Shown piece by piece: positions 7,374-44,321 of a stretch of DNA of 64,000 nt. Position numbers and translations under genes: made by a program. The stretch lies in contig CAWIGJ010000003.1 of assembly GCA_963835655.1 (NCBI GenBank), positions 305,016 to 369,015 of the forward strand, written 5' to 3'. This stretch comes from an uncultured Chloroflexia bacterium (lineage in GTDB: Bacteria > Chloroflexota > Dehalococcoidia > DSTF01 > JALHUB01). How positions within the stretch are numbered: the first letter of the stretch is position 1; the number at the start of each line of letters is the position of its first letter. The notes beneath the pieces were generated by a model that saw nothing but the letters and a program-made list of their open reading frames with translations, had not been told where the DNA came from and did no database searches.

Positions 7374-7946
7374 CTACAGGCGGCTTTCCACCACCTCGCG
7401 CTTCACGCTACGGAAGAAGGCCTCGACGTAATCGGCGCGCTTCAGCCCGTAGTCGGCCAGGAAGGCGTGCTCGAAGACGTCGAGGACGAGGATCGGCGTG
7501 CAGCCGGCGAGGTGGTTGTTCTGGTGCTCGTTGATCCACTCGTTGATGAAGGCGCCGGACTGGTTATCGCGATAGAGGATAGCCCAGCCGACACCGCGCA
7601 TGGCGCCGGTGGCCTTGAAGTCGGCCAGCCAGGCGTCGTAGCCGCCGAAATCCGGCTTGACGGCGTTCGCCAGCTTCTCCGACTGTGCCAGGTCGCCCTT
7701 GCCGCCGAGATTCTCGAAGTAGTATTCGTGGAGGCGCATGCCGTCCCACTCGAAGCCGAAACGACGCTTCAGTTCCGCGAACTCGGGGGAGGCCTGCTTT
7801 CCATCCTTGGCCATCTGGGCCAATTCATCGCGCAGCTTGTTCGTGTTGGTGACGTAGCCCTGATAGAGAGTGAAGTGGTTCCTCAGCAACGTCTCGCTGA
7901 ATCCGTCCATGCCGATGAGGTGACTGTAGTCCTTCGCCTGGTACAT
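7374..7946 (-). CDS. sodA: Fe/Mn superoxide dismutase
   Basis: Fe/Mn SOD-like motifs (HLAG...DVFEHAF, EHAYY); probable start MYQAKDY within ORF 7374..7988. Confidence 0.9.
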   Translation of the reverse strand: MYQAKDYSHLIGMDGFSETLLRNHFTLYQGYVTNTNKLRDELAQMAKDGKQASPEFAELKRRFGFEWDGMRLHEYYFENLGGKGDLAQSEKLANAVKPDFGGYDAWLADFKATGAMRGVGWAILYRDNQSGAFINEWINEHQNNHLAGCTPILVLDVFEHAFLADYGLKRADYVEAFFRSVKREVVESRL

Positions 7947-8007: not shown

Positions 8008-8511
8008 TCAGGCGGCTGCCCGCCGAGCGAGCCAGTCCCTGATCATGGCTGCATGAGTAGGAAAGTGGCCGGAGCCGGCCCGCCGGAAAATGCCGTTGGC
8101 CGTCTTGTCAGGGCCGAAGCGATCGTCCGGCAACTGTGCTCCGATCTGACGGAAGCGGGCGACGGCTTCGTCGAACTCCTGAAGTATCTGGGCCTTGTCT
8201 TTCCCCTGGGCTCCGGCAGCGAAGATGTCGTTCCAGTGCTGCACATCGGTCCAATCGACGCCTTCGGGCGTAGGACGCTCCCCGCGCGCCATTCGCTCGA
8301 GGCCCATCGAGAGTTGCTGATGCCAGCCGGTCAGGTGGGCGACGATTTCGCGCACGCCCCAGCGGCCATCAAGCCATTTTTCCTCGAACCGCTGCGGGTC
8401 GATCCCGTCGACGAGCGAGCGGAAGTCTCGACAGGCTTCCTCGTGCCATTGCAGTTCGTCCTGTTTCGAGGGCATCCACGCACCTCTCTGGCGCGCCCCC
8501 AGGTCAAACAC
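8008..8511 (-). CDS. ClbS/DfsB (DUF1706)-like four-helix-bundle protein
   Basis: 167 aa; pattern L.GW...L..W....P.EG..W...N resembles ClbS/DUF1706 family. Confidence 0.5.
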   Translation of the reverse strand: MFDLGARQRGAWMPSKQDELQWHEEACRDFRSLVDGIDPQRFEEKWLDGRWGVREIVAHLTGWHQQLSMGLERMARGERPTPEGVDWTDVQHWNDIFAAGAQGKDKAQILQEFDEAVARFRQIGAQLPDDRFGPDKTANGIFRRAGSGHFPTHAAMIRDWLARRAAA

Positions 8512-16294: not shown

Positions 16295-16702
16295 TTATGC
16301 TGGCCCGGCGTCGGGCCGGTGGTCCAGAAGGTCTTTCAGCCTTCTTATGAGGTCCCAGGGGTCGAAAGGCTTGGGGACAAAAATGCCGTTGAGCGGCCCA
16401 TAGCGCCGCGTGGCTTCGTCCTCATCGAGGGCGGAGAGAATCAGCCAGACGGGATAGCCGTCGCGCGCGGCCTGGAGACGGCGGAGCACGGCGCCGCCCA
16501 GACCATCGGGTAGCCCAAGGTCCAAGAGAACGGCGTCCGGCTGACTCTGGTCCATCTTCTCGAGCGCCCCACGGCCGGTCTCTACCACAGAAGTGTTGAA
16601 TCCGGCCCGATGAAGGCAGACTCGCAAAATCCTTGCCACGGCCGGATCGTCCTCAACAATGAGCACGTTGCGGCGAGCGGGGTCTGGCTTCTCGGATGTC
16701 AT
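16295..16702 (-). CDS. Single-domain response regulator (CheY-like)
   Basis: Receiver motifs VLIVEDD...LLDLGLPDG...KPF; probable start MTSEKPD within ORF 16295..16750; paralog of 25247..25663. Confidence 0.8.
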   Translation of the reverse strand: MTSEKPDPARRNVLIVEDDPAVARILRVCLHRAGFNTSVVETGRGALEKMDQSQPDAVLLDLGLPDGLGGAVLRRLQAARDGYPVWLILSALDEDEATRRYGPLNGIFVPKPFDPWDLIRRLKDLLDHRPDAGPA

Positions 16703-16781
16703 CCAGTATCCAATCTCTCGGGAAGAGGAGAGAAGTTCGTTCGACCTCATTTCTTAGGGTAGGACGGCTATATGGCCGAAT

Positions 16782-25246: not shown

Positions 25247-25663
25247 TTAGGACGCTGCCTTTGCGACGTTGACCTGACCCTCCGGGCTCCTGCCTACAAG
25301 ACGGTCGAGAAGACGGATCAGGTCCCATAGATCAAAAGGCTTTGCCAGGAATGGGCTCTGTAAGGGACCGAAGCGCTTCTCGGCATCCTCTTCGTCGAGG
25401 GCGGACATGACGATCCAGGGTGTCCGGTGCGCTGTCGACTGAAGATGGCGAAGGACATCGCCGCCGCGGCCGTCGGGCAAACATAGATCCAGAATAACGG
25501 CGTCATAGTTCGTTTCATCCATGGCCTTGAGCGCCTCTCGACCGGACTCCACACGCACCGTTTCGAAGCCATTGCTTCTCAGCGACAGGCGCAACATCCT
25601 CACAATGCCGTCATCGTCTTCAACGAGCAGAACCCTACGGTGTTTCGTCTTTTCCCGTGCCAT
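25247..25663 (-). CDS. Single-domain response regulator (CheY-like), paralog of 16295..16702
   Basis: VLLVEDDD...ILDLCLPDG...KPFDLWDLIRLL; same unusual C-terminal KPFDxWDLIRxL as the other copy. Confidence 0.8.
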   Translation of the reverse strand: MAREKTKHRRVLLVEDDDGIVRMLRLSLRSNGFETVRVESGREALKAMDETNYDAVILDLCLPDGRGGDVLRHLQSTAHRTPWIVMSALDEEDAEKRFGPLQSPFLAKPFDLWDLIRLLDRLVGRSPEGQVNVAKAAS

Positions 25664-26045
25664 TGTCACATGCCTGCCTGCTTTGCAACCTCTAATAATC
25701 ATCGGAAAACGTCATGCAACGCCCGTGATTATCGAGCGGTGATCGGTGAAGAATTCATGAAGAGAAGAAGCAAAATGAATAATCGCCTTAACAGAAGATC
25801 GCCCGAAGCGGACATTCATGCTCGCATGGACCATGATGAGGCGGACGGCACGGTATCGCCTTGTCCGGCTTAAGCCGCCAGCGTCTCCATGACCTGCTGC
25901 CTGCCTGTCGAGCGCCTGCGCCTTGATCGCCTTCCTAGCGGATGCTACTATCGTCGAGGCTAAAGACGCTGGCCACGGAGGGGACCACCCCTCTTTCTTT
26001 TACTGCCGAAACGGCCGCGTCTTGCCGGAGTATGCTGTGGCTGAG

Positions 26046-29862: not shown

Positions 29863-31936
29863 CTACGACGCCTTCGCGTCCTCTTTCGCCTTGTCGATGA
29901 TCTTCTGGGCCAGGTGAGCCGGCACCTCTTCGTAGTGATCGAACTCCAGGGTGTAGTGGCCGCGGCCCTGAGTGATCGACCGCAGGTCCGTCGCGTAGCG
30001 CTGCACTTCCGCCAACGGCACCTGCGCCTCGATGACGCTGTAGCCGTCCTGCGGCGTTATCCCCAGCACCTTGGCGCGCTTGCTATTGAGGTCGCCCATG
30101 GCGTCGCCCGTGTTCGCCTCGGGGACGGTGACGCGCAAGTTCATGATCGGCTCGACGAGGATGGGCTTGCCCTGGTTCACTCCCTGCTTCAGAGCGGCTG
30201 AGCCGGCGATCTTGAACGCCATTTCCGATGAGTCGACCGGGTGCTCCTTGCCGTCGAACAGTGTGACCTTCACGTCGACCAGCGGGTAGCGGGCGATCAC
30301 GCCCTCCTGCATCGCCTCCGACACGCCCTTCTCGACGGCCGGGATGTAGGTCTTGGGCACGACGCCGCCGACGATCTTATCCTCGAACTGAAAGCCGCTG
30401 CCACGAGGCAGGGGTTCGAGCTTGATGGCAACGCGGGCGTACTGACCGTGACCGCCGGTCTGCTTCTTGTGCGTGTACTCTGAGGTTGCGGGCGCGGTGA
30501 TGGTCTCCTTGTATGGCACCTTCGGGGTAGTCAGCTCAAGGCCGACGCCGAACTTGCGCTGCACCTTCTCGACGGTCACCTCCAGGTGCGGCTCACCAAG
30601 GCCGGAGAGAATCGTCTCGTTGGTGTCGGCGTCACGATGGACGCGCAAGGTCGGGTCTTCCTCGACGATACGGGTGAGGGCGCTGCCCATCTTGTCGAGG
30701 TCGGCCTTCGTCCTGGGATGGACGGCGGCGCTGAAGGCGGGCGTCGGGAAGGTGATAGGCGGCAGGATGAGCGGCCGCTCCTTCGTCGCCAGAGTATCGC
30801 CGGTCGAGGTCTCCGCGAGCTTGGCCAGGGCGCCGATGTCACCGGCGGCCAGTTGCGCGACGGGCTCCTGCGTTTTCCCACGCAAGACGAAGAGCTGGCC
30901 GATGCGCTCGGCGGTCGCCTTGTTCGAGTTCCAGGCCGTCGAATCGCCCTTCAGGGTGCCGGAGTAGACGCGCAGGTAGGTCAGCTTGCCGACGTAGGGG
31001 TCGGCGGCGGTCTTGAAGACGAGAGCCGCCAGCGGGCCGGAGGCATCGGCTTTGACCTCCTCTTCCTGCTTGGTGGAAGCGTTCTTGGCCCTGGCGGGCG
31101 GGCGCTCCTTGGGCGAAGGGAAGTAGCTGGCGATGGTGTTGAGAAGCGGCGCGGTGCCGATATTCTTCGCGGCGGCGCCGGTGAGCACGGGGACGATGGC
31201 GCCGGATGCGATTCCCAACCCGCAGGCCGCGCGTTAGCTCTTCGTCGGAGAGCTCCGTGCCGTCGAGGTACTTCGTCAGGAGCTCGTCGTCGGTCTCGGC
31301 GACGGCTTCGACGAGCTGCTCGCGGTAGCGGGCGGCCTGGTCGGAGAGGGCGTCGGGAACGGCGCCTTCGGTCGCTTTGTCGCCGGAGTAGGCTTTGCCA
31401 GCAAGGATGTCGACGACGCCGGTGAAGGTGCTTTGGGCGCCGATAGGCACCTGGACGGCGACGCACTTCTTGCCGAAGCGCGACTGCACCTGGGAGAAGG
31501 CCTGGGCGAAGTCGGCGTTCTCACGGTCCATGCGGTCGATGAGGACGGCGCGCGGGAGGTCGGCCTCGTCGGCGAAGGCCCAGCAGTGCTCGGTGCCGAC
31601 TTCGACGCCGGATGAGGCGTCGACGAGGACGAGGGCGGCGTCGGCGGCGCGAATGGCGGCCTTCATCTCGCCGACGAAGTCAGCGTAGCCAGGGGCGTCG
31701 ATGACGTTCAGCTTCCGGTTCTGCCACTCGCAGGGCAGGAGGGAGAGGCTGATGCTGATGGTGCGCTTGGCCTCGTCGGGGTCGAAGTCGGAGGTTGTGG
31801 TGCCGTCTTCGACGGAGCCGAGGCGGTTGATGGCGCCGGAGGTGAAGAGCATGGCCTCGGCGAGGGTGGTCTTGCCGGTGCCGCCGTGGCCGATGAGGAC
31901 AACGTTACGTACGTCCTCTGTCTTATAGTCTTTCAT
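29863..31936 (-). CDS. Elongation factor G-like translational GTPase (EF-G paralog) with apparent frameshift near 31220-31245
   Basis: N-terminal G-domain (GHGGTGKTT, DAPGYADF) in ORF 30839..31936; domains II-V (IASGAIVPVLTGAAAKN...) in ORF 29863..31218, shifted by one nt around a GGGAA run. Confidence 0.8.
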
Positions 31937-32207: not shown

Positions 32208-33072
32208 TTAGTGTGTTGGCATTCGGCGGCGAAGGGCGAGGCCGAAGGCGGTCGCGACAAAGCCCAAAGTGCCGAGCAGGAGGGCGAGACTGGCCCACGC
32301 AACACTCCCGGAGGAGGCAGTGCCGGTGCCGACGCTCGGCAGGCCTGCGCCGCTGCCGCCGACCGGCGCGAACGTCAGATTGAGCTGCTGCGGATCAGAC
32401 ACGCCATCCCAAGCATGCTACACGCCCGTCTCGTTGGCGACGGCGAGATATTCCCTTGTGCATCGAGGAGCTTGAACGCAACTTGCGATCCCTCCGCTCC
32501 GCAACTGGCCTGTTGCGCATTTGAATACACGATAGCCCCATACCCATCGCCGGTGGGAGCTAGCAGCGCGTAGCCACACGCGGTATTCCCGATGTAAGGT
32601 ATAACCGCTTCGGCGGTAGGCACCCTATTGGGCCCGAGTTTCCCGCCGAAGCGAGCGAAGGCAGCGTCCCGCAACTAGATTGAGGAACTGCGTGCCGCCG
32701 GCGTGCCATATGGCCGTTTGCGCAGCAGATTGATCAACGAGGAAATCGACGACGGCTCCCTCTTTACCGCACCCGGGTACGATCTCATCGGATACCACCT
32801 GTAGTGAGTACACGGGAACATTGCTGTCGGGGCCGAAACCCGCGACGAGGGCTCGCTGCAGACGAGTCCACCGATCTTCCCACGATGGGGCCAAGCGAAG
32901 TGTGGGCATTAAGCCAGGCTGTGCCCGTAAAGGTTGCCAGTTGTTGGGAAGTGGGGGTCGGTGGCGTTGTTGGGGTTGCGGCGGGCTGTTGCGTGAGAGT
33001 AGGCGTCGGTGTGGCTGCATGCGCGGCGGCAGCGATTGAGATTGAAGCTGCGACGGCGACTGCGAGGCACAT
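32208..33072 (-). pseudogene. Secreted two-domain LPxTG-type protein family, copy IV (disrupted by at least 3 frameshifts and one TAG; proper anchor and stop at 32208)
   Basis: Signal peptide + TPTPT linker at 33072; domains PGCGKEGAVVDF...WHAG and ASCGAEGSQVAFKLLDAQGN...PQQLNLTF; C-terminus GLPSVGTG...hydrophobic...RRRMPTH-stop. Confidence 0.5.
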
Positions 33073-33179
33073 AGCGTCCGGATCTCTCGCGTAGCCGTCA
33101 TGTGACGACCTCCTTGTGGCTGTGTTTTCGCGCGGCGATGCTCAGTACTTCGTCGCCCGGCTGCTAAAGGCGAGGCCGG

Positions 33180-33940
33180 AGACGGTGACGGCCTCAGAGA
33201 ACCCAGCAGGAGGGCGAGGCCGGTCAAGAGAGAGGCTTCGGGCGAGCCGTCGCCGGTGTTTGGCAAACTGGCGCCGCTGCCGCCGACCGGCGCAAAGGTC
33301 AGGTTGAGTTGCTGCGGTGCTGAAACGCCATCCCAAGCATGCCAGACTCCCGTCTGGTTAGCGACGGCAACAACGTTGCCTTGGGCGTCGAGAAGTTTGA
33401 AGGTGACCGAGTTGCCTCCGGTGCCACAGCTCGCTTGCTGGTCGGTGGAATACACCACCGCCCGTAATTGTCCGTGTGTTATTCAGCGACGCATATCCGC
33501 ATTGAACGTTTCCTACATAGGGAACAATGACTTCCCCAGCGGGGAGTCTTGCGGAACCAGGCGCGCCCGTGAACAGGGCGAAGGAGGGACCAATTATGAG
33601 GTCGATATGCTCATCTTCTCCAGCGTGCCAGACGGCTGTTTGCGGGGCTTGTTGAGTGCCAACGAAGAAAGTGATGAGCGCCCCGTCGTGCCCGCAACCA
33701 GGCACTGCGTCTTCCGAAGGAACGGACAAGCTGTACACAGGAGCATTTGTGTCAGGAGGGGTTATGAAAGGCGCCTTTTCAAGCGCGCAAGTGGTACTTC
33801 CGATCTTGGCAGCAACGTCCTGTCTACAGGTGCGTTGCCACGCTGCTCCGAAGAAGCGGAGCAGGGGCGCAGCTAGAAGTGGGTGTGGCGTAGCTGCATT
33901 GAGGGCAGCGGCGTGGAGCGCAGCGTGGCGACGAGGCATA
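33180..33940 (-). pseudogene. LPxTG-type protein family, copy III (no own signal peptide; domain 1 and domain 2 in different frames; LPNTG anchor without stop)
   Basis: dom1 VPGCGHDGALITFFVG...WHAG (ORF 33358..34302 frame), dom2 ASCGTGGNSVTFKLLDAQGN...LNLTFAPVGGSGASLPNTGDGS (ORF 32625..33458 frame). Confidence 0.4.
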
Positions 33941-34794
33941 CGTCTGCGTTGTCGCCGGCGGTGTGTGCGCGCGGCGTGCCGCGCGCGCGGGGCGGGCGCG
34001 AGGCCGAGAGCGAGCGGAGGGCAGGCTCGCCCAGGGAAGGCCTTCGGGTGAGCCGTCGCCGGTGTTTGGCAAACCGGCGCCGCTTCGGCGCTGGTACCGA
34101 AGGTCAGGTTGAGCGGCGGCGGCTCGTTGATGCCGTCCCAGGCGTGCCAGGTACCCGTCTCATTTGCGACTGCGAAGACGTTTCCTCGCGCGTCAAGAAT
34201 CTTGAAGGTGACCTGGGCTCTTCCGTCCCGCAGCCAGGTTGCTGACTGGGGGAGAGAACGTCGGCCTCGTATCCAGCCGGACCCCAGTAGCCAAAACCGC
34301 ATCGTGTCGCGCCGACAAAAGGCACCAGCTGTGAACCGGGAGACGGTTGTTTCGACAAAGAGCCGTCGAAGCGGGCGAAAGGATTGCCGGCGACGAAAAA
34401 CATAAATTGCTGAGCGCCGCGTGCCAAGCAGCGGTCTCGACTGCCTGCTGGTCTCCTACGAAGAAGGTGACCTGGGCTCCTTCGGTCCCACAACCGGGCA
34501 CCACCTCGGCAGACGGCACTCTCAGCGTAAAGAGCAGCCGATTTGCCCGTCCGTGGGGACGACGGGATTCGAGTCGGTCGCACAGACTGTGTCACCCACC
34601 CTGGCCGTCATCGTCTGTCCCTGGCAGAGTTGGGCGTTGAGCCAGCAACTGCCCCTAAAGGTTGAGTTGATCAGGTGAGGGATGTTTGGCGGGGTTTGAC
34701 TGGGTGGAGTTGCGGCAGTTGCTGCGGTGATCGAGAGAACAAACGAAGCCATTCCGACAACGATTGCTGAAAGATGACCTAGTCTGGGCATCAT
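33940..34794 (-). pseudogene. LPxTG-type protein family, copy II (signal peptide at 34794; multiple frameshifts)
   Basis: MMPRLGHLSAIVVGMASFVLSITAATAATPP... then VVPGCGTEGAQVTFFVGDQQ...; FARFDGSL...PGCGTE; ...FKILDARGNVFAVANETGTWHAWDG...LNLTFG; LPNTGDGSPEG. Confidence 0.45.
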
Positions 34795-34887
34795 AGCTCC
34801 TCCAGGGGATGCGATTGCTTCGTTTATAAGAACGCTTTATTCGTCGAAAAGTTAACGCTTAGCGGAAAAAGATGATGTGGAGAAGCT

Positions 34888-35070
34888 CTACTCCTGCGAC
34901 TGGAACGAGCGCGTGGCAAGCGAGGGGCGCGCAGTGGCGAAGGAGGAGGCCGATGCGGTCGGTGCTGCGGTAGGAGTGGGCGTGGGCGTGGGCGTTGCGG
35001 CATTCGCAGACGTATGCGTAGACGCCAGCAAGAGTATGGGGGGAGCCATCAGTACTGCGGCAATTCGCAT
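34888..35070 (-). pseudogene. Truncated family member: signal peptide + TPTPTPT linker then stop
   Basis: MRIAAVLMAPPILLLASTHTSANAATPTPTPTPTAAPTASAS... 61 codons. Confidence 0.4.
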
Positions 35071-35087
35071 CCCGCCCTCCTTGGCCC

Positions 35088-35613
35088 TTAAGCTGACTTC
35101 CTTGACAGTCTCACCTGGCGCAGCTTCTCTAGGATCCACATGCGGGCGAGAGTCGTGGGACCGACGCCCAATTCGTGGGCCTCGCGTCGCAGTTCCTCCC
35201 ACGTGTCTGAAGGTAAGCGGACGGGGATGACTTTGTCGAGCGGACGCTTCACCTCGACCTTCACGACCTCGTCGGTCTCGCGCCAGGCGTCGCCCTCCTC
35301 GACTCTAATCTCTGCTTTCACGTCACTCACGTTGGTCTCCTGTCTCACGTCGATAGAGCCGGCGTCCTGGCCAGTCATCTGTCGCGCGGTGACGATTCTC
35401 CAAACGCCTCCGCCTCGATCCGCCAGGACAACCAGCAGGTAGCGTCCGGCTTCCGTCCGACTGAATACCTTGTATAGACCCTCGCGGCCTCGACGCACAT
35501 GGCGAAGAAGCGAATAGCAGGCCTCTTCCGCTTCATCAAACGTGACACCGTGCGCCGTCTCGATCTTGTCCAGAACCTGGTCGTCGATCTCAAGCGCTTC
35601 GATACGATGCACG
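35088..35613 (-). CDS. brnTA: BrnT (DUF497 RNase toxin)-BrnA (RHH antitoxin) module, apparently fused in one reading frame
   Basis: BrnT-like IDDQVLDKIETAHGVTFDEAEEA...GRYLLVVLADRGGGVWRIVTARQ continuing in frame into BrnA-like ...KVIPVRLPSDTWEELRREAHELGVGPTTLARMWILEKL; probable GTG start about 35613. Confidence 0.6.
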
Positions 35614-35635
35614 TCTAGCGCCTCTGGCTCATAGT

Positions 35636-35651
35636 GTATACATATGTATAC
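35636..35651. promoter_or_regulatory. Perfect 16-bp AT-rich palindrome GTATACATATGTATAC immediately upstream of brnTA
   Basis: Self-complementary; only strongly AT-rich block in the region; candidate BrnA operator. Confidence 0.5.
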
Positions 35652-35683
35652 ATCGTAAGGAGGATGCACCGACGAGATACCTG

Positions 35684-36139
35684 TTATGCTCTCGCCTTCT
35701 CGGCCTCGAGCTGGGCATAAACGGGGTTGCCCTTGCCTCGGTACCAGTGACGCATGTGCTGAGCAAGTGGTTCCGAGGACCAGGTCGCGGCAACGCACGT
35801 GACGCCCTGCTCCGCGAGGAGAGCGAGCAAGAAGTCGAGCTTGCTCTTGTTGGGGGCGAGCCGGTCAACGCGGTCAACGATCAGGATATCAAAGGCAGGG
35901 TCCGATAGCAGGGCGACAAGCCCCGGTCTATTGAGACCGTCGCTGGCCCAGCTCATGTCCTCGTGGATGCTCTGAAGCTGCCATTTGTGGGCCTCAGCGA
36001 AGGAGGAGATATGTGCCTCCTGAACGTGGGGCGGCGTCCGCTTCTTGCCCATCTCCTCGAAATCCTGCCTGACGTATCCGACGGCACGAGGCCTCCGCTG
36101 CCAGGCGCGTGGATCTGATAGCGTCCAGTTAGGATTCAT
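35684..36139 (-). CDS. Serine-recombinase (resolvase) catalytic-domain-like protein, short, non-canonical nucleophile position
   Basis: AVGYVRQDF...ASDGLNRPGLVALLSD...FDILIVDRVDRLAPNKSKLDFLLALLAEQGV resembles resolvase N-domain but YVR-QDF replaces the usual YxRVS(T/S); no HTH domain. Confidence 0.5.
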   Translation of the reverse strand: MNPNWTLSDPRAWQRRPRAVGYVRQDFEEMGKKRTPPHVQEAHISSFAEAHKWQLQSIHEDMSWASDGLNRPGLVALLSDPAFDILIVDRVDRLAPNKSKLDFLLALLAEQGVTCVAATWSSEPLAQHMRHWYRGKGNPVYAQLEAEKARA

Positions 36140-36292
36140 GGGTGCCCCAGCGGAGGAACGTCCGCGTGGCGAGTATCACGGCCGCGCACGCCATGCGCGT
36201 ACCTTCTCCAGTTTCCAGAAAGCAATGTTCAGGCCACGCTCCGCATCGGCGTACTGGACAAGAGGCTCCATGACAGCGCCATCTTACACCGT

Positions 36293-37182
36293 TCAGGCAG
36301 GTCCGCCAAAGCTCGGTGCTCCAGTAGTGGCGGAGGGGACGCGGAAGGCGGTCGCGACAAAGCCCAGGGAAGCCAGCAAAAGCGGAAGGCCGGCCCAGAG
36401 AGGCCCCCCGGTGGAAGTGCCGCCGGTGCCGGTGTTTGGCAAACCGGCGCCGCTGCTGCTACCGAAGGTCAGGTTTAGCTGCTGCGGCCCAGACACGCCA
36501 TCCACGCATGCATGTACCTGTCTCGTTCGCGACCGCAACGACGTTCCCCTGAGCATCGAGAAACTTGAACGTGATGGGCGCGCCTTCGACGCCACAGCCT
36601 GCTTTCTGTTGCGCAGAGTAAGCGATGTCAGTGTAGCCGACGAGCTGACCAATGCAGGGCGGCGGGAGTGCTTCATTAAACTCCTCGGTGCCACACGATG
36701 CTCCGTTTATGAGGGAACGACCGCCTCGGGCTCATGCAGGTCACAGGTGTGCTGCCTGAGAACAGGGAGAAGGCAACGCCCACGATAAGGTTCAGTTGTG
36801 TATCCGTGCCCGCATGCCATATCGCTGTCTGCGCAGCCTGCCGACCGTCGATCAAGAACGTGATCAGGGCTCCGCTGCCGCAGCCTGGCGTGATGCTGGT
36901 GGAGACAACATCGACTTGATACTTCAGCGGCGCATCTGCAATTGGGATGGGACCTCCTGTGCCGCAAACGACGCTGCCAATCTTGGCGACGATGGTTCCC
37001 CTTGATAGCTGGCTGTCGCCCCATGATTCGCCGTGGAACCGCGCGACCTGTTGGAGCGAAGGGGTCGCTGTCAATCCGGGTGTCGCGGTGGGTGTAGGCG
37101 TCGCGGCTCTGGTGATGTTGGTGACAGCTGCAAACAGTCCGACGGAGAGGGCCACGAGCACAAACGGAGACGGCTTTTTCAT
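36293..37182 (-). pseudogene. LPxTG-type protein family, copy I (own promoter/RBS, signal peptide; at least 4 frame changes)
   Basis: MKKPSPFVLVALSVGLFAAVTNITRAATPTPTATP...; dom1 ITPGCGSGALITFLIDGRQAAQTAIWHAG; dom2 GCGVEGAPITFKFLDAQGNVVAVANETG / VDGVSGPQQLNLTFGSSSGAGLPNTG... in three different frames. Confidence 0.5.
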
Positions 37183-37271
37183 CGCGCTCCTCCAGATCAG
37201 AAGATGCCTTCACTAGAAAGAACGTTATAGTCCAACCGACTCTTAGCGGAAAAAGACGATGCGGGGAAGCT

Positions 37272-38138
37272 CTATTCCTGCGACTCGAAGGAGCGCATGG
37301 CCAGCGACAGAACGACGGCGGCGAAGACGGCGAGGATGGCGACGTCGGCCCAGGTTCCAAGATGGTAGCTGCCGATCTTTATGCCCGGCGCCAGCACGGA
37401 GCCGAGCAGGGCGCGTCGCATGGGGTCGACGCCGTAGGCTACGGGGTCGACGCGCGTCAGCACGGCCATCCAGCCCGGCAGGCCGCGCAGGGGGAAGAAG
37501 GCGCCGCTCAGGAAGAACATGGGCATCACGAAGAAGTTGATGATCATCTGGAAGGACTCCATCGTCTGGAGCCGTGACGCGATGAGGATGCCCATCGACG
37601 AGATCGCGAAGGCGGTCAGGAACATGAGGGCGAGCAGCTCCAGGGTGTTGAAGGGGTTGAGGCCGACGCCGAGGATAGGCGCCAGGACCAGCAAGATAGC
37701 GCCCTGGAGCATCGCTATGGTGCTGCCGCCGAGGGCCTTCCCCAGGACGACGGAGGCGCGGCTGACGGGCGCGACGAGCAGCTCGCGCAGGAAGCCGAAC
37801 TCGCGATCCCAGACGATGGAGATGGCGCTGAAAATCGAGGTGAAGAGCACCGCCATCGCGATGATGCCGGGATAGAGGAAGCGGATATAAGAGACGTTCC
37901 CGAGTTGCTGCGTGACGCCCGCGCCCAGCGAGGCGCCAAGGCCGGCGCCGAAGACGATGAGGAAAAGAAGGGGTTGTCCCATTGAGGCGATAATGCGGGC
38001 GCGGTCGCGGGAATAGCGGAGGACGTCGCGGTACCAGATGATGTAGACGCCGCGCAGGTTGGCCTGGAGGCCGCGGCCGGGAGTCACGTCCATAGTTGGA
38101 GCCAGGGTTGCCATTAGCGCCTTCCTCCTCCGCCCCAC
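37272..38138 (-). CDS. ABC-2 type transporter permease
   Basis: 288 aa, 6 TM, ABC-2 family pattern; overlaps ATPase gene. Confidence 0.8.
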   Translation of the reverse strand: MGRRRKALMATLAPTMDVTPGRGLQANLRGVYIIWYRDVLRYSRDRARIIASMGQPLLFLIVFGAGLGASLGAGVTQQLGNVSYIRFLYPGIIAMAVLFTSIFSAISIVWDREFGFLRELLVAPVSRASVVLGKALGGSTIAMLQGAILLVLAPILGVGLNPFNTLELLALMFLTAFAISSMGILIASRLQTMESFQMIINFFVMPMFFLSGAFFPLRGLPGWMAVLTRVDPVAYGVDPMRRALLGSVLAPGIKIGSYHLGTWADVAILAVFAAVVLSLAMRSFESQE

Positions 38139-39097
38139 ATGCGACCGCGCATGCGCAGCATCGCCAGGGGGTCGGCCTCATCCTCACGGATAACGTGGCC
38201 GGTGAGCTTCAAGAAAACGTCGTCGAGGGTCGGCCGGTGCAGGTCTACCGATTCGACGGGAACTGCGAGGTCGCAGACGACGCGCGGAATGAACTCAGCG
38301 CCGTTGGGCACTTCGAGCCGGAGGCGGCCGTCCTGGCTCTGCACCTCCAGGCCGAACTTCTCGCGGATCTCGACGACGGCCTTGTCGTTGTCCGGCGTTC
38401 GCAGCGTGACGATGTCGGCACCGACCATCCGCTTCAGCGCGTCCGGCGTGTCCAGCGCCTGGAGGTGGCCGTAGTCGATGACGCCGATGCGCTGGCAGTG
38501 CTCTGCCTCTTCCATGTAATGGGTGGTCATGAAGATGGTTATGTGGTGGGTGCGCTGGAGCTTCAGGATGTAGTTCCAGATGTGCTCGCGCGTCTGCGGG
38601 TCGAGGCCGATGGTCGGCTCGTCGAGGAAGAGGACGCGCGGGTGATGGAGCAGGCCGCGGGCGATCTCCAGCCGCCGCTTCATGCCGCCGGAGTAGGTCT
38701 TGACGACCGCCTTCCGCCGGTCCCATAGCTCGACGACGTGTAGAACCTCTTCGATGCGCTTCTCGCGGAGGTGGCCGGGCACGTTGTAGACGTAGGCGTG
38801 GAAGCGAAGGTTCTCGATAGCGGTGAGCTGGTCATCGAGGCTGGGGTCCTGGAAGACGAGGCCTATGGATTGACGGACCTCGTTCCGATGCGTCTCGACA
38901 TCGTAGCCGGCCACCTTCGCATGACCGGACGTTGGGCTCAGCAGGGTGCAGAGAATGTTGATGGTCGTCGTCTTCCCGGCGCCGTTTGGGCCCAGGAAGC
39001 CGAAGACCTCACCCTCTTCTATCTCAAAGCTGACGCCGTCGACGGCGGCCAGGGAACCGAAGTTCTTGTGGAGGTCTGAGACTTCGACTGAAAGCAT
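38114..39097 (-). CDS. ABC transporter ATP-binding protein (DrrA-like)
   Basis: Walker A GPNGAGKTT, signature LSGGMKRRL, Walker B LFLDEPT. Confidence 0.85.
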   Translation of the reverse strand: MLSVEVSDLHKNFGSLAAVDGVSFEIEEGEVFGFLGPNGAGKTTTINILCTLLSPTSGHAKVAGYDVETHRNEVRQSIGLVFQDPSLDDQLTAIENLRFHAYVYNVPGHLREKRIEEVLHVVELWDRRKAVVKTYSGGMKRRLEIARGLLHHPRVLFLDEPTIGLDPQTREHIWNYILKLQRTHHITIFMTTHYMEEAEHCQRIGVIDYGHLQALDTPDALKRMVGADIVTLRTPDNDKAVVEIREKFGLEVQSQDGRLRLEVPNGAEFIPRVVCDLAVPVESVDLHRPTLDDVFLKLTGHVIREDEADPLAMLRMRGRMWGGGGRR

Positions 39098-39115
39098 TGA
39101 ATCTATTATAACCGG

Positions 39116-39652
39116 TTACTCGCTTTTGTCCTTCTCTTTTTCCTCCTCCGGCTTTTGTTCGCGGAGTATTTCTTCGATTTCCTTGCGGGCGCGGCCGAGA
39201 ACGTCGCGGACCTGGCGGATGGTCTCGGGGCTCATGTAGCGCCTGCCGCGTCCGGCGATCGAGTGGACGAAGTCGCGCATGTCGTGGTGCAGTTCGCGGA
39301 ACTGGGTTTTCAGTTGCGGGTCCCACCAGGAGCCGGCGCGCTTGCGGATACCTTCGACGGTCTCTTTCTGCTGGTCGAGGAAGGTTCGCCCCTCATCGGT
39401 GATAGAGTAGACGCGACGGCCGTCCTGCTGCGCCGAAGTGGCGTAGCCCATGTCCTCCAGCATCTGGAGTGTGGGGTAGACGGCGCCGGCGCTGGGGGTA
39501 TACATGCCGCCGAAGCGCTCCTCCAGGGCGCGGATGACCTCGTAGCCGTGGGCCGGCCGCTCGCTGAGGAGCTGCAGGATGACGTACTTGAGGTCGCCTC
39601 TTTCAAAGACGCGTTCGTGGAAGCGTTCGGGATCAAACCAGGGTCTTCGCAT
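39116..39652 (-). CDS. PadR-family transcriptional regulator
   Basis: DLKYVILQLLSERPAHGYEVIRALEERFGGMYTPSAGAVYPTLQMLEDMG. Confidence 0.8.
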   Translation of the reverse strand: MRRPWFDPERFHERVFERGDLKYVILQLLSERPAHGYEVIRALEERFGGMYTPSAGAVYPTLQMLEDMGYATSAQQDGRRVYSITDEGRTFLDQQKETVEGIRKRAGSWWDPQLKTQFRELHHDMRDFVHSIAGRGRRYMSPETIRQVRDVLGRARKEIEEILREQKPEEEKEKDKSE

Positions 39653-41387: not shown

Positions 41388-42740
41388 ATGCCCGCGACCC
41401 CCATCAACGCCGGCGACACAGCCTGGGTCTTAGTGGCGGCGGCCCTGGTCATGCTCATGACGCCTGGCCTGGCCTTCTTCTACGGTGGCCTGGTGCGCGA
41501 GAAGAACGTCCTGGGCACGATCATGCACAGTTTTGTGGTGATCGCCATAGTCAGCCTGCTATGGGTGGTGGTCGGCTACAGCCTCGCCTTCGGGCCGGAC
41601 CACTGGGGGCTGATCGGCGGGCTCGACTGGGCGTTCCTCCGGCACGTCGGACAGACGCCGAACCCCGCTTACTCGTCGACCGTCCCGCACCAGGCGTTCA
41701 TGGCCTTCCAGATGATGTTCGCGATTATCACGCCGGCGCTTATCACGGGCGCTCTCGCGGAGAGGGCCCGCTTCAGCTCATTCGTCATCTTCATGGCCGC
41801 CTGGTCGCTTTTGGTGTACGCACCGATAGCGCATTGGGTATGGGCGCCGGGCGGTTGGCTTCGCAATCTGGGCGCGCTGGACTTCGCCGGCGGGACCGTG
41901 GTGCATGTGAATGCGGGAATCGCCGCCCTTGTCGCCGCAATCATGTACGGACGGCGGCTGGAGTACGGCAAAGAAGCGATCGAGCCGCATGACATCTCGA
42001 TGATGATGCTCGGGGTTGGGCTTCTCTGGTTCGGCTGGTTTGGCTTCAACGCGGGCAGCGCCCTCGCGGCGAACGGGGTGGCTGTCAATGCTCTGGTTGT
42101 CACGCACGTCGCCGCAGCCGCGGGCGCCCTCACCTGGCTGCTCATAAGCTGGTGGCAGACGGGAAAGGCGAGCGTGGTGGGCGTGGGGGCGGGCGCCGTG
42201 GCCGGGCTGGTGGCGATTACGCCGGCTTCCGGCTTCGTGGACGCGGGCCCGGCGATAGTCATCGGGATCGGCGCAGGCACATTCTGTTACTTCGCCGTCC
42301 AGTTGCGTCACCGCCTGCACCTTGACGACGCCCTTGACGTGGTCGGTGTGCACGGCGTCGGCGGCGCCTGGGGCGCGCTGGCGACCGGCATCTTCGCGAC
42401 CGTCGCGGTGAACTCGGCAGGCGCTAACGGCCTCATTCACGGCAATCCCGGACAGTTGGGTGCGCAAGCGGCAGCAGTTGGCGCGACGATCGCCTATTCG
42501 CTTGTTGCGACGTTCTTGATCCTGCGCGTGCTGGACGTCGTCATAGGACTCCGGGTCTCGGAAGAGGAGGAGAAGATCGGGCTGGACGTCTCGCAGCACG
42601 GCGAACGGGCGTATGCCTTGCCAAGCCTCAGCGTTCTTAGGGTCGCTGAACTGACCGTGCCGAGTCCGGACAGGCACAAGGAAACGACGCCGGTTGGGGC
42701 ACAGGAGAGGCCTGAAAGCGGGCGTTTGCCGAGTAAATGA
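41388..42740 (+). CDS. amt: Ammonium transporter (Amt/MEP family)
   Basis: 450 aa, 11-12 TM, Amt signature (DFAGGTVVHVNAG..., GFNAGSALAANG); AAGGAG RBS. Confidence 0.9.
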   Translation: MPATPINAGDTAWVLVAAALVMLMTPGLAFFYGGLVREKNVLGTIMHSFVVIAIVSLLWVVVGYSLAFGPDHWGLIGGLDWAFLRHVGQTPNPAYSSTVPHQAFMAFQMMFAIITPALITGALAERARFSSFVIFMAAWSLLVYAPIAHWVWAPGGWLRNLGALDFAGGTVVHVNAGIAALVAAIMYGRRLEYGKEAIEPHDISMMMLGVGLLWFGWFGFNAGSALAANGVAVNALVVTHVAAAAGALTWLLISWWQTGKASVVGVGAGAVAGLVAITPASGFVDAGPAIVIGIGAGTFCYFAVQLRHRLHLDDALDVVGVHGVGGAWGALATGIFATVAVNSAGANGLIHGNPGQLGAQAAAVGATIAYSLVATFLILRVLDVVIGLRVSEEEEKIGLDVSQHGERAYALPSLSVLRVAELTVPSPDRHKETTPVGAQERPESGRLPSK

Positions 42741-42847
42741 GGCAGATGTATGCCTAGGCCTAACGGCGGCTTCCATGCCGTCGAGATGGTTAAGCATTCC
42801 GCAGCGGCATGTGCCGCGGCGGCAGGAGGGGTGTGATTTCTGCCTTC

Positions 42848-42885
42848 GTAACCGTGGGTTCATCGGCCCGTAACATGGCTGTAAC
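42848..42885 (+). promoter_or_regulatory. Four pentamer half-sites phased at 11 bp (GTAAC-n6-TTCAT-n6-GTAAC-n6-GTAAC) upstream of second amt gene
   Basis: Read directly; resembles actinobacterial GlnR a-site/b-site boxes (GTnAC-n6-GnnAC). Confidence 0.5.
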
Positions 42886-42938
42886 GTGGCCCTTCTACAC
42901 TCGGAGCACCGGTACGCTTGGGAGTAGGAGGAAGGGTC

Positions 42939-44321
42939 GTGCCAACAGGGGCTATCAACGCTGGCGACACAGCCTGGGTCTTAGTGGCGGCGGCCCTGGT
43001 CATGCTCATGACGCCCGGCCTGGCCTTCTTCTACGGTGGCCTGGTGCGCGAGAAGAACGTCCTGGGCACGATCATGCACAGCTTTGTGGTGATCGCCATA
43101 GTCAGCCTGCTATGGGTGGTGGTCGGCTACAGCCTGGCCTTCGGGCCGGACCACTGGGGGCTGATCGGCGGGCTCGACTGGGGGTTCCTCCGGCATGTCG
43201 GGCAAGCGCCGAACCCCGACTATGGTCCGACGATACCGCACCAAGCGTTCATGGTCTTCCAGATGATGTTCGCCGTGATCACCCCTGCTCTCATCACCGG
43301 CGCCTTTGCCGAGAGGGCGAAATTCGGCACCTTCCTTGTCTTCATGGCTGCCTGGTCGCTCTTGGTCTACGCGCCCATCGCCCACTGGGTCTGGGCAAGC
43401 GGCGGCTGGCTGAAGGAAATGGGCGCGCTGGACTTTGCCGGCGGAACGGTGGTGCACGTGAATGCAGGGATCGCTGCCCTCGTTGCGGCCATCATGTACG
43501 GACGGCGCCTGGAGTACGGCAAAGAAGCGTTGGAGCCGCATGACATTTCGATGATGATGCTCGGGGTTGGACTATTGTGGTTCGGCTGGTTTGGCTTCAA
43601 TGCCGGCAGTGCCCTCGCGGCGAACGGGCTGGCCGTCAACGCTTTCGTCGTCACTCACGTCTCTGCCGTGTCGGCCGCACTAGCCTGGCTTGGCCTCAGT
43701 TGGTGGCAGACCGGCAAGGCCAGCGTCCTGGGCGTGGGCGCCGGCGCCGTCGCAGGTCTCGCCGCGATTACGCCCGCGTCCGGCTTCGTCGATGTCGCCC
43801 CCGCTATCGTCATCGGAATCGGTGCGGGCACATTTTGCTACCTCGCCGTGCAGTTGCGGCACCGCCTCCATCTCGACGACACTCTCGACGTCGTGGGCGT
43901 GCACGGTCTCGGCGGCGCCTGGGGCACGATAGCCGCCGGACTCTTCGCTACCGTCGCTGTGAACGCGGCGGGCGCAAATGGGCTGGTCCACGGAAACGCG
44001 GGACAACTGGGCATACAGGCGCTCGCAGTCGGCGTGACCCTGGGCTACTCGCTGGTCGCGACCTTTGTGATCTTGCGCGTCCTGGACCTTGTCTTTGGAC
44101 TCAGGGTCTCCGAGGAGGAGGAGAAGATCGGGCTGGACATGTCGCAGCACGGCGAACGCGCCTACGGCTTCGGCTCACTCAGCGTGCTCCAAGTCTCGCA
44201 GTTGACGGTGCCGGGGATGGACAGCGCAGCGGCGAAGTCGAAGCCGACGGCCCCAACTGGCAAAAGTCCGTTGCATCCAGAAATCACGTTACCGGGCACG
44301 GAACGCCGCGAAAAGACATGA
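42939..44321 (+). CDS. amt: Ammonium transporter (Amt/MEP family), tandem paralog
   Basis: About 85% identical to upstream amt; probable GTG start at 42939 after AGGAGG (ORF 42918..44321). Confidence 0.9.
   Translation: MPTGAINAGDTAWVLVAAALVMLMTPGLAFFYGGLVREKNVLGTIMHSFVVIAIVSLLWVVVGYSLAFGPDHWGLIGGLDWGFLRHVGQAPNPDYGPTIPHQAFMVFQMMFAVITPALITGAFAERAKFGTFLVFMAAWSLLVYAPIAHWVWASGGWLKEMGALDFAGGTVVHVNAGIAALVAAIMYGRRLEYGKEALEPHDISMMMLGVGLLWFGWFGFNAGSALAANGLAVNAFVVTHVSAVSAALAWLGLSWWQTGKASVLGVGAGAVAGLAAITPASGFVDVAPAIVIGIGAGTFCYLAVQLRHRLHLDDTLDVVGVHGLGGAWGTIAAGLFATVAVNAAGANGLVHGNAGQLGIQALAVGVTLGYSLVATFVILRVLDLVFGLRVSEEEEKIGLDMSQHGERAYGFGSLSVLQVSQLTVPGMDSAAAKSKPTAPTGKSPLHPEITLPGTERREKT

What the first reader, a model, noticed from the sequence alone, without database searches (positions are those of the whole stretch)
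35684..36139. Short resolvase-like protein lacking the canonical catalytic serine, embedded in the LPNTG array
The 151 aa protein has clear serine-recombinase catalytic-domain hallmarks (DGLNRPGLVALL, ILIVDRVDRLAPNKSKLDFLLALLAEQGV). However, the usual YxRVSTxxQ nucleophile motif reads YVRQDFEEM, and there is no C-terminal HTH DNA-binding domain. Its position between paralogous surface-protein cassettes and a toxin-antitoxin module suggests either a degenerate mobile-element relic or a non-catalytic recombinase-fold protein. In the first case it could have mediated duplication or exchange of the cassettes.
Basis: partly seen in the sequence, partly recalled or inferred. Interest (0 to 1): 0.55.

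Follow-up and report, generated by a model that had tools for sequence, protein, structure and literature searches.

The report
Dead resolvase-fold protein, conserved family
The gene encodes a short protein with the fold of a DNA-cutting serine recombinase that lacks the cutting residues and any DNA-binding domain; it is not a decaying relic, because it belongs to a conserved, unnamed family that in most genomes is the first gene of a sensor-controlled operon for a membrane iron-sulfur oxidoreductase.

Summary
ORF 35684-36139(-) encodes a 151-aa protein that passes Pfam's Resolvase threshold and folds like a serine-recombinase catalytic domain. It has Asp where the nucleophilic Ser should be, Pro where the gamma-delta R71 arginine should be, and no DNA-binding domain.

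It is not a relic. It has 81 close homologues (53-89% identity), all short and all from Dehalococcoidia. The Ser and R71 columns vary freely among them, while the rest is under purifying selection (dN/dS about 0.2). Each canonical catalytic residue (R8, S10, D67, R68, R71) is lost in some branch of the wider family.

The wider family shares a specific C-terminal W(D/E)xxSQxxRxxY helix. In Dehalococcoidia, Thermodesulfobacteriota and unassigned metagenome lineages, these genes sit directly upstream of a ~700-aa NarI+4Fe4S+CCG oxidoreductase gene. A divergent two-component system lies next to them, often with a sigma-54 promoter.

The window copy belongs to a subclade that lies after a PadR-ABC-ABC2 operon instead. 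The LPNTG cassette upstream of it, and BrnTA downstream, are later insertions. I found no evidence that it mediated cassette duplication.

Its function is inferred: a non-catalytic partner or regulator. I rate it a new variant of a known kind.

The parts
35684..36139 (-). Pseudo-resolvase gene (called RESL in this report), 151 aa plus stop
   Evidence: ORF; PF00239 at 34.4 bits; AF2 model and Foldseek hits to serine-recombinase catalytic domains; 81 homologues; dN/dS 0.26-0.33 against the nearest relatives
36050..36076 (-). Degenerate nucleophile motif YVRQDFEEM (residues 22-30). D26 (36062-36064) occupies the catalytic Ser column. Y22 and R24 are retained.
   Evidence: Profile alignment against about 140 ordinary recombinases; family alignment A1
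35852..35875 (-). DRVDRLAP loop (residues 89-96). The D67/R68 equivalents are kept. The R71 equivalent is Pro here and variable across the family. D89-R90 is a family-specific conserved pair.
35738..35782 (-). Family-specific C-terminal signature WSSEPLAQHMRHWYR (residues 120-134). Q127 and R130 are invariant across the wider family. It replaces the long E-helix with two short helices (124-135 and 139-150).
   Evidence: Alignments A1 and A3; secondary structure of the model
36140..36224 (-). About 85-nt upstream leader that stays with the gene in the window subclade (window, L002, L008)
   Evidence: DNA alignment and blastn
37272..39652 (-). PadR regulator (39116-39652), ABC ATPase (38114-39097) and ABC-2 permease (37272-38138): the conserved upstream neighbours of the gene in this subclade
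   Evidence: Pfam; same order in L002, L008 and L096
36293..37182 (-). LPNTG surface-protein cassette A, inserted between ABC2 and the pseudo-resolvase gene in the window only; reading frame interrupted
   Evidence: Absent at this position in L002, L008 and L096; the two HSPs lie in different frames
35088..35600 (-). BrnT/BrnA toxin-antitoxin module downstream, shared with L096 but absent in L002. In the window the two genes are fused into one ORF by a 1-nt deletion.
   Evidence: Pfam/NCBIfam; comparison with L096
34855..34942 (-). Remnant copy of the ABC2 3' end plus the LPNTG leader. It forms a direct repeat with 37239-37326 (80-87% identity), bracketing cassette A, the pseudo-resolvase gene and BrnTA.
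   Evidence: the repeat finder family D5 and blastn; an equivalent remnant sits after the gene in L002 at 8419-8492
32211..34794 (-). LPNTG/LPSVG surface-protein cassettes B-D downstream
   Evidence: Motif scan; paralogy at 70-77% nt identity

Best explanation
The gene encodes a pseudo-resolvase: a serine-recombinase catalytic domain that has lost its chemistry and its DNA-binding module and is kept by selection for a non-catalytic role. 

Shown:
- It has the recombinase fold.
- The nucleophile Ser and the R71 arginine are absent, and those columns are unconstrained in the family.
- There is no HTH, and the E-helix is replaced by a conserved W(D/E)xxSQxxRxxY tail.
- The gene is under purifying selection.
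- It gives one hit per genome in a clade of Dehalococcoidia and is absent from phages and plasmids.
- In most genomes, family members are the first gene of a two-gene unit with a NarI + 2x[4Fe-4S] + 2xCCG (HdrED/DsrMK-like) membrane oxidoreductase. That unit is transcribed divergently from a histidine kinase and response regulator, and many loci outside Dehalococcoidia have a canonical sigma-54 promoter in front.

Inferred:
- The protein acts by binding rather than catalysis. It could be an accessory or adaptor subunit, an assembly factor, or a regulator of that membrane redox enzyme.
- Binding would use the retained polar cluster at the former active site (Y22, Q40, D61, R71, plus the tail residues Q127 and R130).

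The window copy belongs to a sister subclade in which the gene lies after a PadR-ABC-ABC2 exporter operon, with no oxidoreductase gene within 64 kb. Here it either acts in trans or has taken a related partner-binding role. It played no part in duplicating the LPNTG cassettes.
For: - Fold and family.
- Loss of catalytic residues: the nucleophile column is D40/G20/A11/E2/Q1/T1/S1/N1 and the R71 column is C35/G18/T9/A6/S5/P4/R2 in 81 homologues, against S122 and R133 in about 140 ordinary recombinases. In the distant branch R8, D67 and R68 are also lost, while Y, Q, D, R(P), Q and R stay invariant.
- Selection: median dN/dS 0.22 over 286 pairs; 0.26 and 0.33 for the window against L008 and L002.
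- A discrete family: only 5 representative clusters at E<1e-30 among 1.84 billion proteins, then a jump to ordinary recombinases.
- Taxonomy: 19 species representatives, all Dehalococcoidia/Chloroflexota MAGs, one hit each, including three complete chromosomes.
- Linkage to the oxidoreductase: 24 of 28 Dehalococcoidia loci. Also L029/L036 (Thermodesulfobacteriota), L032 and L033-35. 24 of 29 assessable metagenome loci.
- Divergent HK plus NtrC-type RR in 5 of 5 sampled loci.
- TGGCAC-N5-TTGC promoters upstream in 12 or more loci.
- Window subclade context PadR-ABC-ABC2 in four loci.
- Not mobile.
Against: - No experiment or interaction prediction links the protein physically to the oxidoreductase; the role rests on gene neighbourhood alone.
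- The window copy itself is not next to such a gene, has a different upstream region and lacks the N-terminal extension of the main clade, so its function may have diverged.
- No Cys pair or cofactor motif is conserved across the family that would indicate a redox role.
- Retention of Y22, R24, D61, R71, D92 and R93 could still mean nucleic-acid phosphate binding.
- The window carries at least two likely indel errors, though this ORF aligns end to end with intact 151-aa homologues.
Confidence: 0.6

Rival explanations
1. It is a nucleic-acid-binding regulator. The dead catalytic core still grips a DNA or RNA backbone phosphate with R24, D61, R71 and D92/R93. The basic, aromatic C-terminal helices (MRHWYRGKGNPVY) provide extra contacts. 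The protein then autoregulates or modulates expression of the adjacent operon.
For: Several residues that line the phosphate pocket of real recombinases are retained in the Dehalococcoidia group. The tail is rich in Arg, Trp and Tyr. The gene always sits next to transcription regulators: NarL- or NtrC-type RRs, or PadR in the window.
Against: There is no recognisable DNA-binding domain. The pocket residues R8, D67 and R68 are replaced in the distant branch that keeps the same genomic linkage, so DNA-phosphate binding cannot be the shared function. No repeated operator-like site was found near the window gene.
Confidence: 0.2
2. It is a dominant-negative or decoy partner of an active serine recombinase encoded elsewhere. 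It would form dead heterodimers through the catalytic-domain interface and so control an inversion or excision switch.
For: The catalytic-domain fold is retained. Serine recombinases work as dimers and tetramers (established knowledge).
Against: There is no other resolvase-like ORF in the window. The E-helix that forms the dimer/tetramer interface is replaced by two short helices. The conserved neighbours are redox and signalling genes, not recombinases or invertible segments. No inverted repeats typical of an invertible element lie nearby.
Confidence: 0.07
3. It is a decaying relic of a mobile-element recombinase that once duplicated or exchanged the LPNTG cassettes.
For: It lies inside the cassette array, and a short direct repeat (34855-34942 and 37239-37326) brackets the segment that contains it.
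Against: The ORF is intact and full length, with dN/dS of 0.2-0.3. All 81 homologues, including those in unrelated contexts, lack the catalytic residues. Relatives L002 and L096 have the gene but not the array. The cassettes are 70-77% identical, so they are old. The repeat is a duplicated gene 3' end, not a crossover site.
Confidence: 0.03
4. It is still a recombinase or nuclease that uses another nucleophile (for example a conserved Thr, Ser or Tyr) and borrows DNA binding from a partner.
For: Conserved hydroxyl residues exist: Y22, T35, T114, T119, S121, Y133. The basal member P0082 still has Ser and both Arg residues.
Against: Across the wider family every canonical catalytic residue is dispensable in some branch, and no hydroxyl residue other than Y22 is invariant. 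Y22 is also conserved in ordinary recombinases, where it is not the nucleophile. The family has a chromosomal housekeeping context and gives one hit per genome.
Confidence: 0.03

Closest known systems
N-terminal catalytic domain of large serine recombinases (TP901-1 integrase, Bxb1, PhiC31)
   Same: These are the best sequence and structure matches (3bvp E=7.8e-4; Bxb1 9iu2 Foldseek E=4.5e-8). The beta1-alphaA spacing aligns without gaps to YxRVSTxxQ...Q. The Y, R8, D36, R45 (RP motif), D67 and R68 equivalents are retained.
   Different: No nucleophilic Ser (Asp here; the column is variable in the family). No R71 equivalent. No recombinase, zinc-ribbon or coiled-coil DNA-binding domains. No long E-helix. 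Chromosomal, one hit per genome, not associated with phage or att sites.
Small serine recombinases (gamma-delta/Tn3 resolvase, Hin/Gin invertases, Sin)
   Same: Same Pfam family PF00239 and same alpha/beta core. Similar overall size to a resolvase catalytic domain.
   Different: Lacks S10, R71 and the C-terminal HTH. No res, hix or gix-like repeats nearby. The E-helix is replaced by the family-specific W(D/E)xxSQxxRxxY tail.
IS607-family TnpA catalytic domain (ISC1926, IS1535)
   Same: Second-best structural matches (6dgc E=7e-7, 6dgb). In those proteins the helix-E region also folds back on the core rather than extending (PMC6188088).
   Different: TnpA keeps the catalytic Ser, has an N-terminal MerR-like DNA-binding domain and lies in a transposon with tnpB. 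None of this applies here: NCBIfam IS607 scores 19.5 bits against a cut-off of 110.
Small partner proteins of HdrD/DsrK-type CCG enzymes (for example DsrC for DsrMK)
   Same: A small soluble protein encoded next to a NarI + Fe-S + CCG membrane module. This is an analogy of genomic logic, drawn from established knowledge of the Dsr system.
   Different: Unrelated fold. No conserved Cys pair that could act as a thiol/disulfide substrate. This is an analogy only; membership was never in question.

Membership tests
Serine recombinase (resolvase/invertase/integrase) superfamily | Catalytic-domain fold / Pfam PF00239 match | tested here: met
   34.4 bits against a cut-off of 23.3; Foldseek probability 1.00 to many solved catalytic domains
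Serine recombinase (resolvase/invertase/integrase) superfamily | Nucleophilic Ser in the YxRVS(T)xxQ motif | tested here: not met
   The motif reads YVRQDFEEM. The column is D/G/A/E/Q/T/S/N in 81 homologues, against Ser in 122 of about 140 ordinary members.
Serine recombinase (resolvase/invertase/integrase) superfamily | Active-site arginines (gamma-delta R8, R68, R71) | tested here: not met
   The R8 and R68 equivalents are present (R24, R93). The R71 equivalent is Pro96 and variable in the family. The distant branch also loses R8 and R68.
Serine recombinase (resolvase/invertase/integrase) superfamily | A DNA-binding domain (C-terminal HTH, large C-terminal domains, or N-terminal MerR-like domain) | tested here: not met
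   PF00239 is the only Pfam domain. The protein ends at residue 151. No extension exists in other frames.
Serine recombinase (resolvase/invertase/integrase) superfamily | Long E-helix forming the dimer/tetramer interface | tested here: inconclusive
   The model shows two short helices (124-135 and 139-150) instead of one long helix. The oligomeric state was not modelled.
Serine recombinase (resolvase/invertase/integrase) superfamily | Cognate crossover sites or a mobile or invertible DNA segment nearby | tested here: not met
   Only a duplicated ABC2 3' end and old cassette paralogy were found, with two weak inverted repeats. No phage or plasmid relatives.
Provisional 'HdrED-linked pseudo-resolvase' family (defined in this report) | Short, single-domain protein with invariant Y, Q, D, R(P) in the core and Q, R in the tail | tested here: met
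   Y22, Q40, D61, R71, Q127 and R130 are all present in the window protein
Provisional 'HdrED-linked pseudo-resolvase' family (defined in this report) | C-terminal W(D/E)xxSQxxRxxY helix replacing helix E | tested here: met
   WSSEPLAQHMRHWYR at residues 120-134
Provisional 'HdrED-linked pseudo-resolvase' family (defined in this report) | Gene directly upstream of a NarI + 4Fe4S + CCG oxidoreductase gene | tested here: not met
   No homologue of that gene occurs anywhere in the 64-kb window. The whole window subclade sits after PadR-ABC-ABC2 instead.
Provisional 'HdrED-linked pseudo-resolvase' family (defined in this report) | Divergently transcribed two-component system next to the gene | tested here: not met
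   Not adjacent in the window. The nearest receiver-domain ORFs are 10 and 19 kb away.
BrnT/BrnA type II toxin-antitoxin (the neighbour, not the finding) | BrnT toxin domain followed by a BrnA/CopG-like antitoxin | tested here: inconclusive
   PF04365 scores 30.3 bits (below the cut-off of 34.5) and NF047399 scores 23.3 bits (below 60). The L096 orthologue has two separate ORFs; in the window they are fused by a 1-nt deletion.

The most novel reading that the evidence does not exclude
Short, Ser-less, HTH-less resolvase-fold proteins form a previously unrecognised family spanning at least two phyla. Public annotation calls them only 'recombinase family protein'. In this reading the family is a dedicated partner (subunit, assembly factor or signal-linked regulator) of a two-component-controlled, often sigma-54-dependent, NarI-HdrD-type quinone-linked oxidoreductase. 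That would be a site-specific recombinase catalytic domain recruited into respiratory or redox metabolism. The window copy would be a relocated orphan of this family.
Probability: 0.5. Interest if true: 0.7.

Novelty: new variant of a known kind. Interest (0 to 1): 0.58.

Why it matters
Serine-recombinase catalytic domains are treated as markers of mobile DNA and of programmed rearrangements, and these genes are annotated that way ('recombinase family protein', 'DNA invertase Pin-like').

This family shows that the fold has been kept for a job that needs none of the catalytic residues. It is embedded in a conserved, sensor-controlled operon with an uncharacterised membrane Fe-S/CCG oxidoreductase in Dehalococcoidia, Thermodesulfobacteriota and other anaerobe-like lineages.

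- It corrects a systematic mis-annotation that inflates counts of mobile elements in MAGs.
- It gives a handle on an unstudied redox module, through its always-present small partner and its regulators.
- It adds a rare example of a recombinase-derived pseudoenzyme.

For this window specifically, it removes the suggestion that a recombinase shaped the surface-protein array.

Tried and rejected
- **Hidden Ser-bearing N-terminus or other frames:** none found.
- **A second resolvase-like gene in the window:** none found.
- **Crossover-site repeats around the cassettes:** only a duplicated ABC2 3' end and old cassette paralogy.
- **Phage, plasmid or viral origin:** no family members in IMG/VR. Hits in INPHARED and PLSDB are at most 32% identical and are ordinary recombinases.
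- **Defence-system component:** no PADLOC hit.
- **Conserved RNA upstream:** no Rfam match in the window or in five loci.
- **Sigma-70 promoter and terminator scans around the gene:** nothing above background.
- **Thiol/disulfide carrier (DsrC-like) idea:** rejected, because no Cys pair is conserved across the family.
- **Receiver-domain-like phospho-acceptor idea:** rejected, because position 26 is not a conserved Asp.
- **Literature:** five full-text searches found no description of Ser-less resolvase-domain families or of this operon.

Full report
**1. The observation**

- It passes Pfam's curated threshold for the Resolvase N-terminal domain: PF00239, E=2.8e-8, 34.4 bits against a cut-off of 23.3. 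Residues 19-119 align to profile positions 1-100 of 145.
- NCBIfam gives only far-sub-threshold hits, to CcrB and the IS607 transposase.
- The best solved-structure sequence match is the TP901-1 integrase catalytic domain, E=7.8e-4.
- An AlphaFold model built on 31 homologues is confident (pLDDT 86.8, pTM 0.83). Its topology is beta-alpha-beta-alpha-beta-alpha-beta followed by two short helices.
- Foldseek returns only serine-recombinase catalytic domains: Bxb1, IS607-type TnpA, TP901-1, Sin, PhiC31, gamma-delta and Gin. Probability is 1.00 and E goes down to 4.5e-8.

There is no hidden N-terminus. An in-frame stop lies 12 codons upstream, and no YxRxS(T/S)xxQ motif exists in any frame of 33000-39000. 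It is the only resolvase-like ORF in the window.

**2. Catalytic residues**

I aligned 228 proteins to a profile of the family.

| Column | Window residue | 81 close homologues | About 140 ordinary serine recombinases |
|---|---|---|---|
| Nucleophile (gamma-delta S10) | D26 | D40, G20, A11, E2, Q1, T1, S1, N1 | Ser in 122 |
| gamma-delta R71 | P96 | C35, G18, T9, A6, S5, P4, R2 | Arg in 133 |

These two positions are therefore free to drift. Around them, GYVRQxFxEM, EDxxW, LNRPGL, DRxDRL and above all TCVxATWSxEPLxQxMRxWYR are strongly conserved.

**3. A family, not a relic**

- The search for homologous proteins returned 81 proteins at 53-89% identity. All are 106-198 aa and carry at most PF00239 (two have no Pfam hit on record). 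Where named, they are called 'DNA invertase Pin-like' or 'recombinase family protein'.
- An exhaustive HMMER pass over 1.84 billion representatives found only five clusters at E<1e-30. Scores then drop to fragments and, from about 1e-18, to ordinary recombinases.
- In GTDB species representatives the family occurs in 19 genomes, all Dehalococcoidia/Chloroflexota MAGs. Each gives one hit, including three complete chromosomes.
- Pairwise Nei-Gojobori dN/dS has a median of 0.22 over 286 pairs. It is 0.26 and 0.33 for the window against its nearest relatives L008 and L002.
- No relatives occur in IMG/VR. PLSDB and INPHARED give only hits of at most 32% identity, to ordinary recombinases. There is no PADLOC match.

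**4. Where the family normally lives**

In 24 of 28 Dehalococcoidia loci the order is:

GNAT | HK (GAF-PAS-HisKA_3) <- RR (NarL/GerE) <- | -> pseudo-resolvase -> ~700-aa protein

The ~700-aa protein has a NarI-like membrane domain, two [4Fe-4S] motifs and two CCG domains.

More distant short relatives surfaced: P0082, P0083, P0091, P0105, P0146, P0170 and the three-domain P0103. They share the C-terminal W(D/E)xxSQxxRxxY helix and only six invariant residues (Y22, Q40, D61, R71, Q127, R130 in window numbering). In this branch R8, D67 and R68 are also replaced (AYTADI..., ERVWALSR), while the R71 equivalent is kept. So every canonical catalytic residue is dispensable somewhere in the wider family.

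The genomic linkage nevertheless persists:
- L029/L036 (Thermodesulfobacteriota), L032 (P0082) and L033-35 (two tandem pseudo-resolvase genes) all have the NarI-4Fe4S-CCG gene directly downstream.
- A metagenome scan with the distant group gave 35 strong loci. In 24 the oxidoreductase gene follows on the same strand within about 30-350 nt of the match end. Six are cut by contig ends. Two of the five exceptions (L037, L040) I take to be copies of the multi-domain paralogue.
- In five of five sampled loci the upstream divergent genes are a HAMP/sCache histidine kinase and an NtrC-type sigma-54 activator.
- A canonical TGGCAC-N5-TTGC promoter lies 50-190 nt upstream of the pseudo-resolvase gene in a dozen loci.
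- Dehalococcoidia main-clade loci instead share a conserved upstream element, AAATGCCTAnC...CGGCGGACGAC.

Taken together this is a conserved, sensor-controlled two-gene unit. I found no description of it in the literature library.

**5. The window copy**

In a neighbour-joining tree, the window protein groups with L002, L008, P0001, P0003 and P0005. That group is sister to all other Dehalococcoidia members.

This subclade lacks the N-terminal extension and the main-clade upstream element. It lies after a PadR-ABC ATPase-ABC-2 permease operon in four loci: the window, L002, L008 and L096. The window contains no NarI-HdrD-like gene.

The window is collinear with L002 at about 88% identity, except between ABC2 and EF-G:
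- L002 has ABC2 | pseudo-resolvase | a ~75-nt remnant of the ABC2 3' end | one surface-protein gene | EF-G.
- L096 has ABC2 | pseudo-resolvase | BrnT | BrnA | a 40-codon remnant of the pseudo-resolvase 3' end.
- The window has ABC2 | LPNTG cassette A | pseudo-resolvase | BrnT-BrnA | ABC2 3' remnant (34855-34942, a repeat of 37239-37326) | cassettes B-D | EF-G.

Placing cassette A upstream of the gene is therefore a derived, window-specific rearrangement. The cassettes are only 70-77% identical in DNA. The only bracketing repeat is a duplicated gene end.

Nothing points to recombinase-mediated exchange. A protein whose lineage lost the nucleophile before the family diversified could not have catalysed it.

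**6. Mechanism**

*Shown:* recombinase fold; loss of catalytic residues and of DNA-binding modules; a new conserved tail; purifying selection; a chromosomal location with one hit per genome; conserved operon linkage in most of the family.

*Inferred:* the protein works by binding. The most likely role is as an accessory or adaptor, an assembly factor, or a regulator of the co-encoded membrane Fe-S/CCG oxidoreductase. The surviving polar cluster at the old active site, plus the tail Q/R, would form the interaction or ligand site. For the window copy the partner is unknown: either the oxidoreductase encoded elsewhere, or a new partner such as the adjacent ABC-2 exporter.

*Rivals:*
- A nucleic-acid-binding regulator. 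This is plausible for the Dehalococcoidia group, but the phosphate-pocket residues are not conserved family-wide.
- A decoy subunit for an active recombinase. There is no such gene nearby and no E-helix.
- A mobile-element relic, or a cryptic enzyme using another nucleophile. Both are contradicted by the conservation pattern.

**7. Comparison and novelty**

The protein works like no characterised serine recombinase. It fails the membership tests for the nucleophile, the Arg triad, the DNA-binding domain and cognate sites, while meeting the fold test.

It is best described as a pseudoenzyme offshoot of the serine-recombinase catalytic domain. It is closest in sequence and structure to the large-serine-recombinase N-terminal domain, and it resembles IS607 TnpA in folding its helix-E region back on the core (PMC6188088).

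I rate it a new variant of a known kind. The window instance alone is of moderate interest. The family-level pattern it led to is the more interesting result.

**8. Caveats**

- The window carries probable indel errors. EF-G is frameshifted at 31214/31215, brnT has a 1-nt deletion relative to L096, and the LPNTG cassettes are frameshifted. The pseudo-resolvase ORF, however, aligns end to end with intact 151-aa homologues.
- The functional inference rests on gene neighbourhood only.

Noticed in passing
window 29863-31936 (-), junction at 31214/31215: The EF-G gene is split into two overlapping ORFs by a frameshift. The L002 orthologue aligns as residues 1-241 and 241-689 in different frames. 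Because the gene is essential, this is probably an assembly indel, which warns that other frameshifts in the window may be errors too.
   Followed up: partly
window 35088-35600 (-); deletion near 35340; palindrome 35636-35651: BrnT and BrnA are fused into one ORF. Relative to the L096 orthologue, which has two separate ORFs, there is a 1-nt deletion (GGAAC to GGAC) and the stop TAA is changed to CAA. A perfect palindrome GTATACATATGTATAC sits just upstream of brnT. L096 has GTATACCTATGGTATAC at the same place, so it is a likely operator.
   Followed up: partly
window 34855-34942 and 37239-37326; L002 8419-8492; L096 4205-4330: Nested duplications of gene 3' ends. A remnant of the ABC2 3' end lies downstream of the inserted segment in the window and in L002. 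In L002 the remnant (…SFESQE*) matches the window's ABC2 end better than it matches L002's own ABC2 end (…AFESTE*). A 40-codon remnant of the pseudo-resolvase 3' end lies after BrnTA in L096. Small cassettes seem to enter this locus at gene 3' ends while regenerating the end. The mechanism is unexplained.
   Followed up: partly
window 32211-34794 and 36293-37182 (-): Several LPNTG/LPSVG surface-protein cassettes have interrupted reading frames. After LPNTG at 34072 the expected hydrophobic anchor is out of frame, and cassette A is split between two frames. The intact L002 homologue (286 aa, IPNVG motif) has no Pfam domain.
   Followed up: partly
window 16295-16750 (-) and 25247-25702 (-): Two paralogous 151-aa stand-alone receiver-domain proteins (PF00072, E=8.5e-18 and 6.4e-19). 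They happen to be the same length as the finding but are unrelated to it.
   Followed up: yes
L029 8001-9440 (also L030, L031, L039, L040): A 479-aa Thermodesulfobacteriota protein made of three tandem Ser-less pseudo-resolvase domains. In L029 it lies about 2.8 kb downstream of a single-domain copy and its NarI-4Fe4S-CCG partner, beside a sigma-54 response regulator.
   Followed up: partly
L029 2259, L047 3912, L055 3950, L056 3917, L057 3864, L062 1275, L068 1804, L070 992 and others: Canonical sigma-54 promoters (TGGCAC-N5-TTGC) lie 50-190 nt upstream of pseudo-resolvase genes in loci outside Dehalococcoidia. Each has a divergent histidine kinase and NtrC-type activator next door.
   Followed up: partly
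L001, L003, L005, L009-L028, about 100 nt upstream of the pseudo-resolvase start (e.g. L010 ~7830-7870): A conserved ~40-nt upstream element, AAATGCCTAnC...(N)...CGGCGGACGAC, followed by a TAnnnT box. It is present even in L009, where the gene context differs, but is absent from the window subclade. No Rfam match. It is probably a promoter plus a regulator site.
   Followed up: partly
L032 343-834 (P0082): A basal family member still has Ser at the nucleophile position and both loop arginines (YVRQSREE, ERLTRRR). It is already short, has no HTH, carries the family tail and sits upstream of the oxidoreductase gene. This suggests that recruitment preceded loss of the catalytic residues.
   Followed up: partly
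window 41388-44321 (+): Two adjacent ammonium-transporter paralogues, about 80-82% identical to each other's counterparts in L002, next to a glutamine-synthetase gene in the syntenic L002 locus. This is ordinary nitrogen-assimilation context.
   Followed up: no
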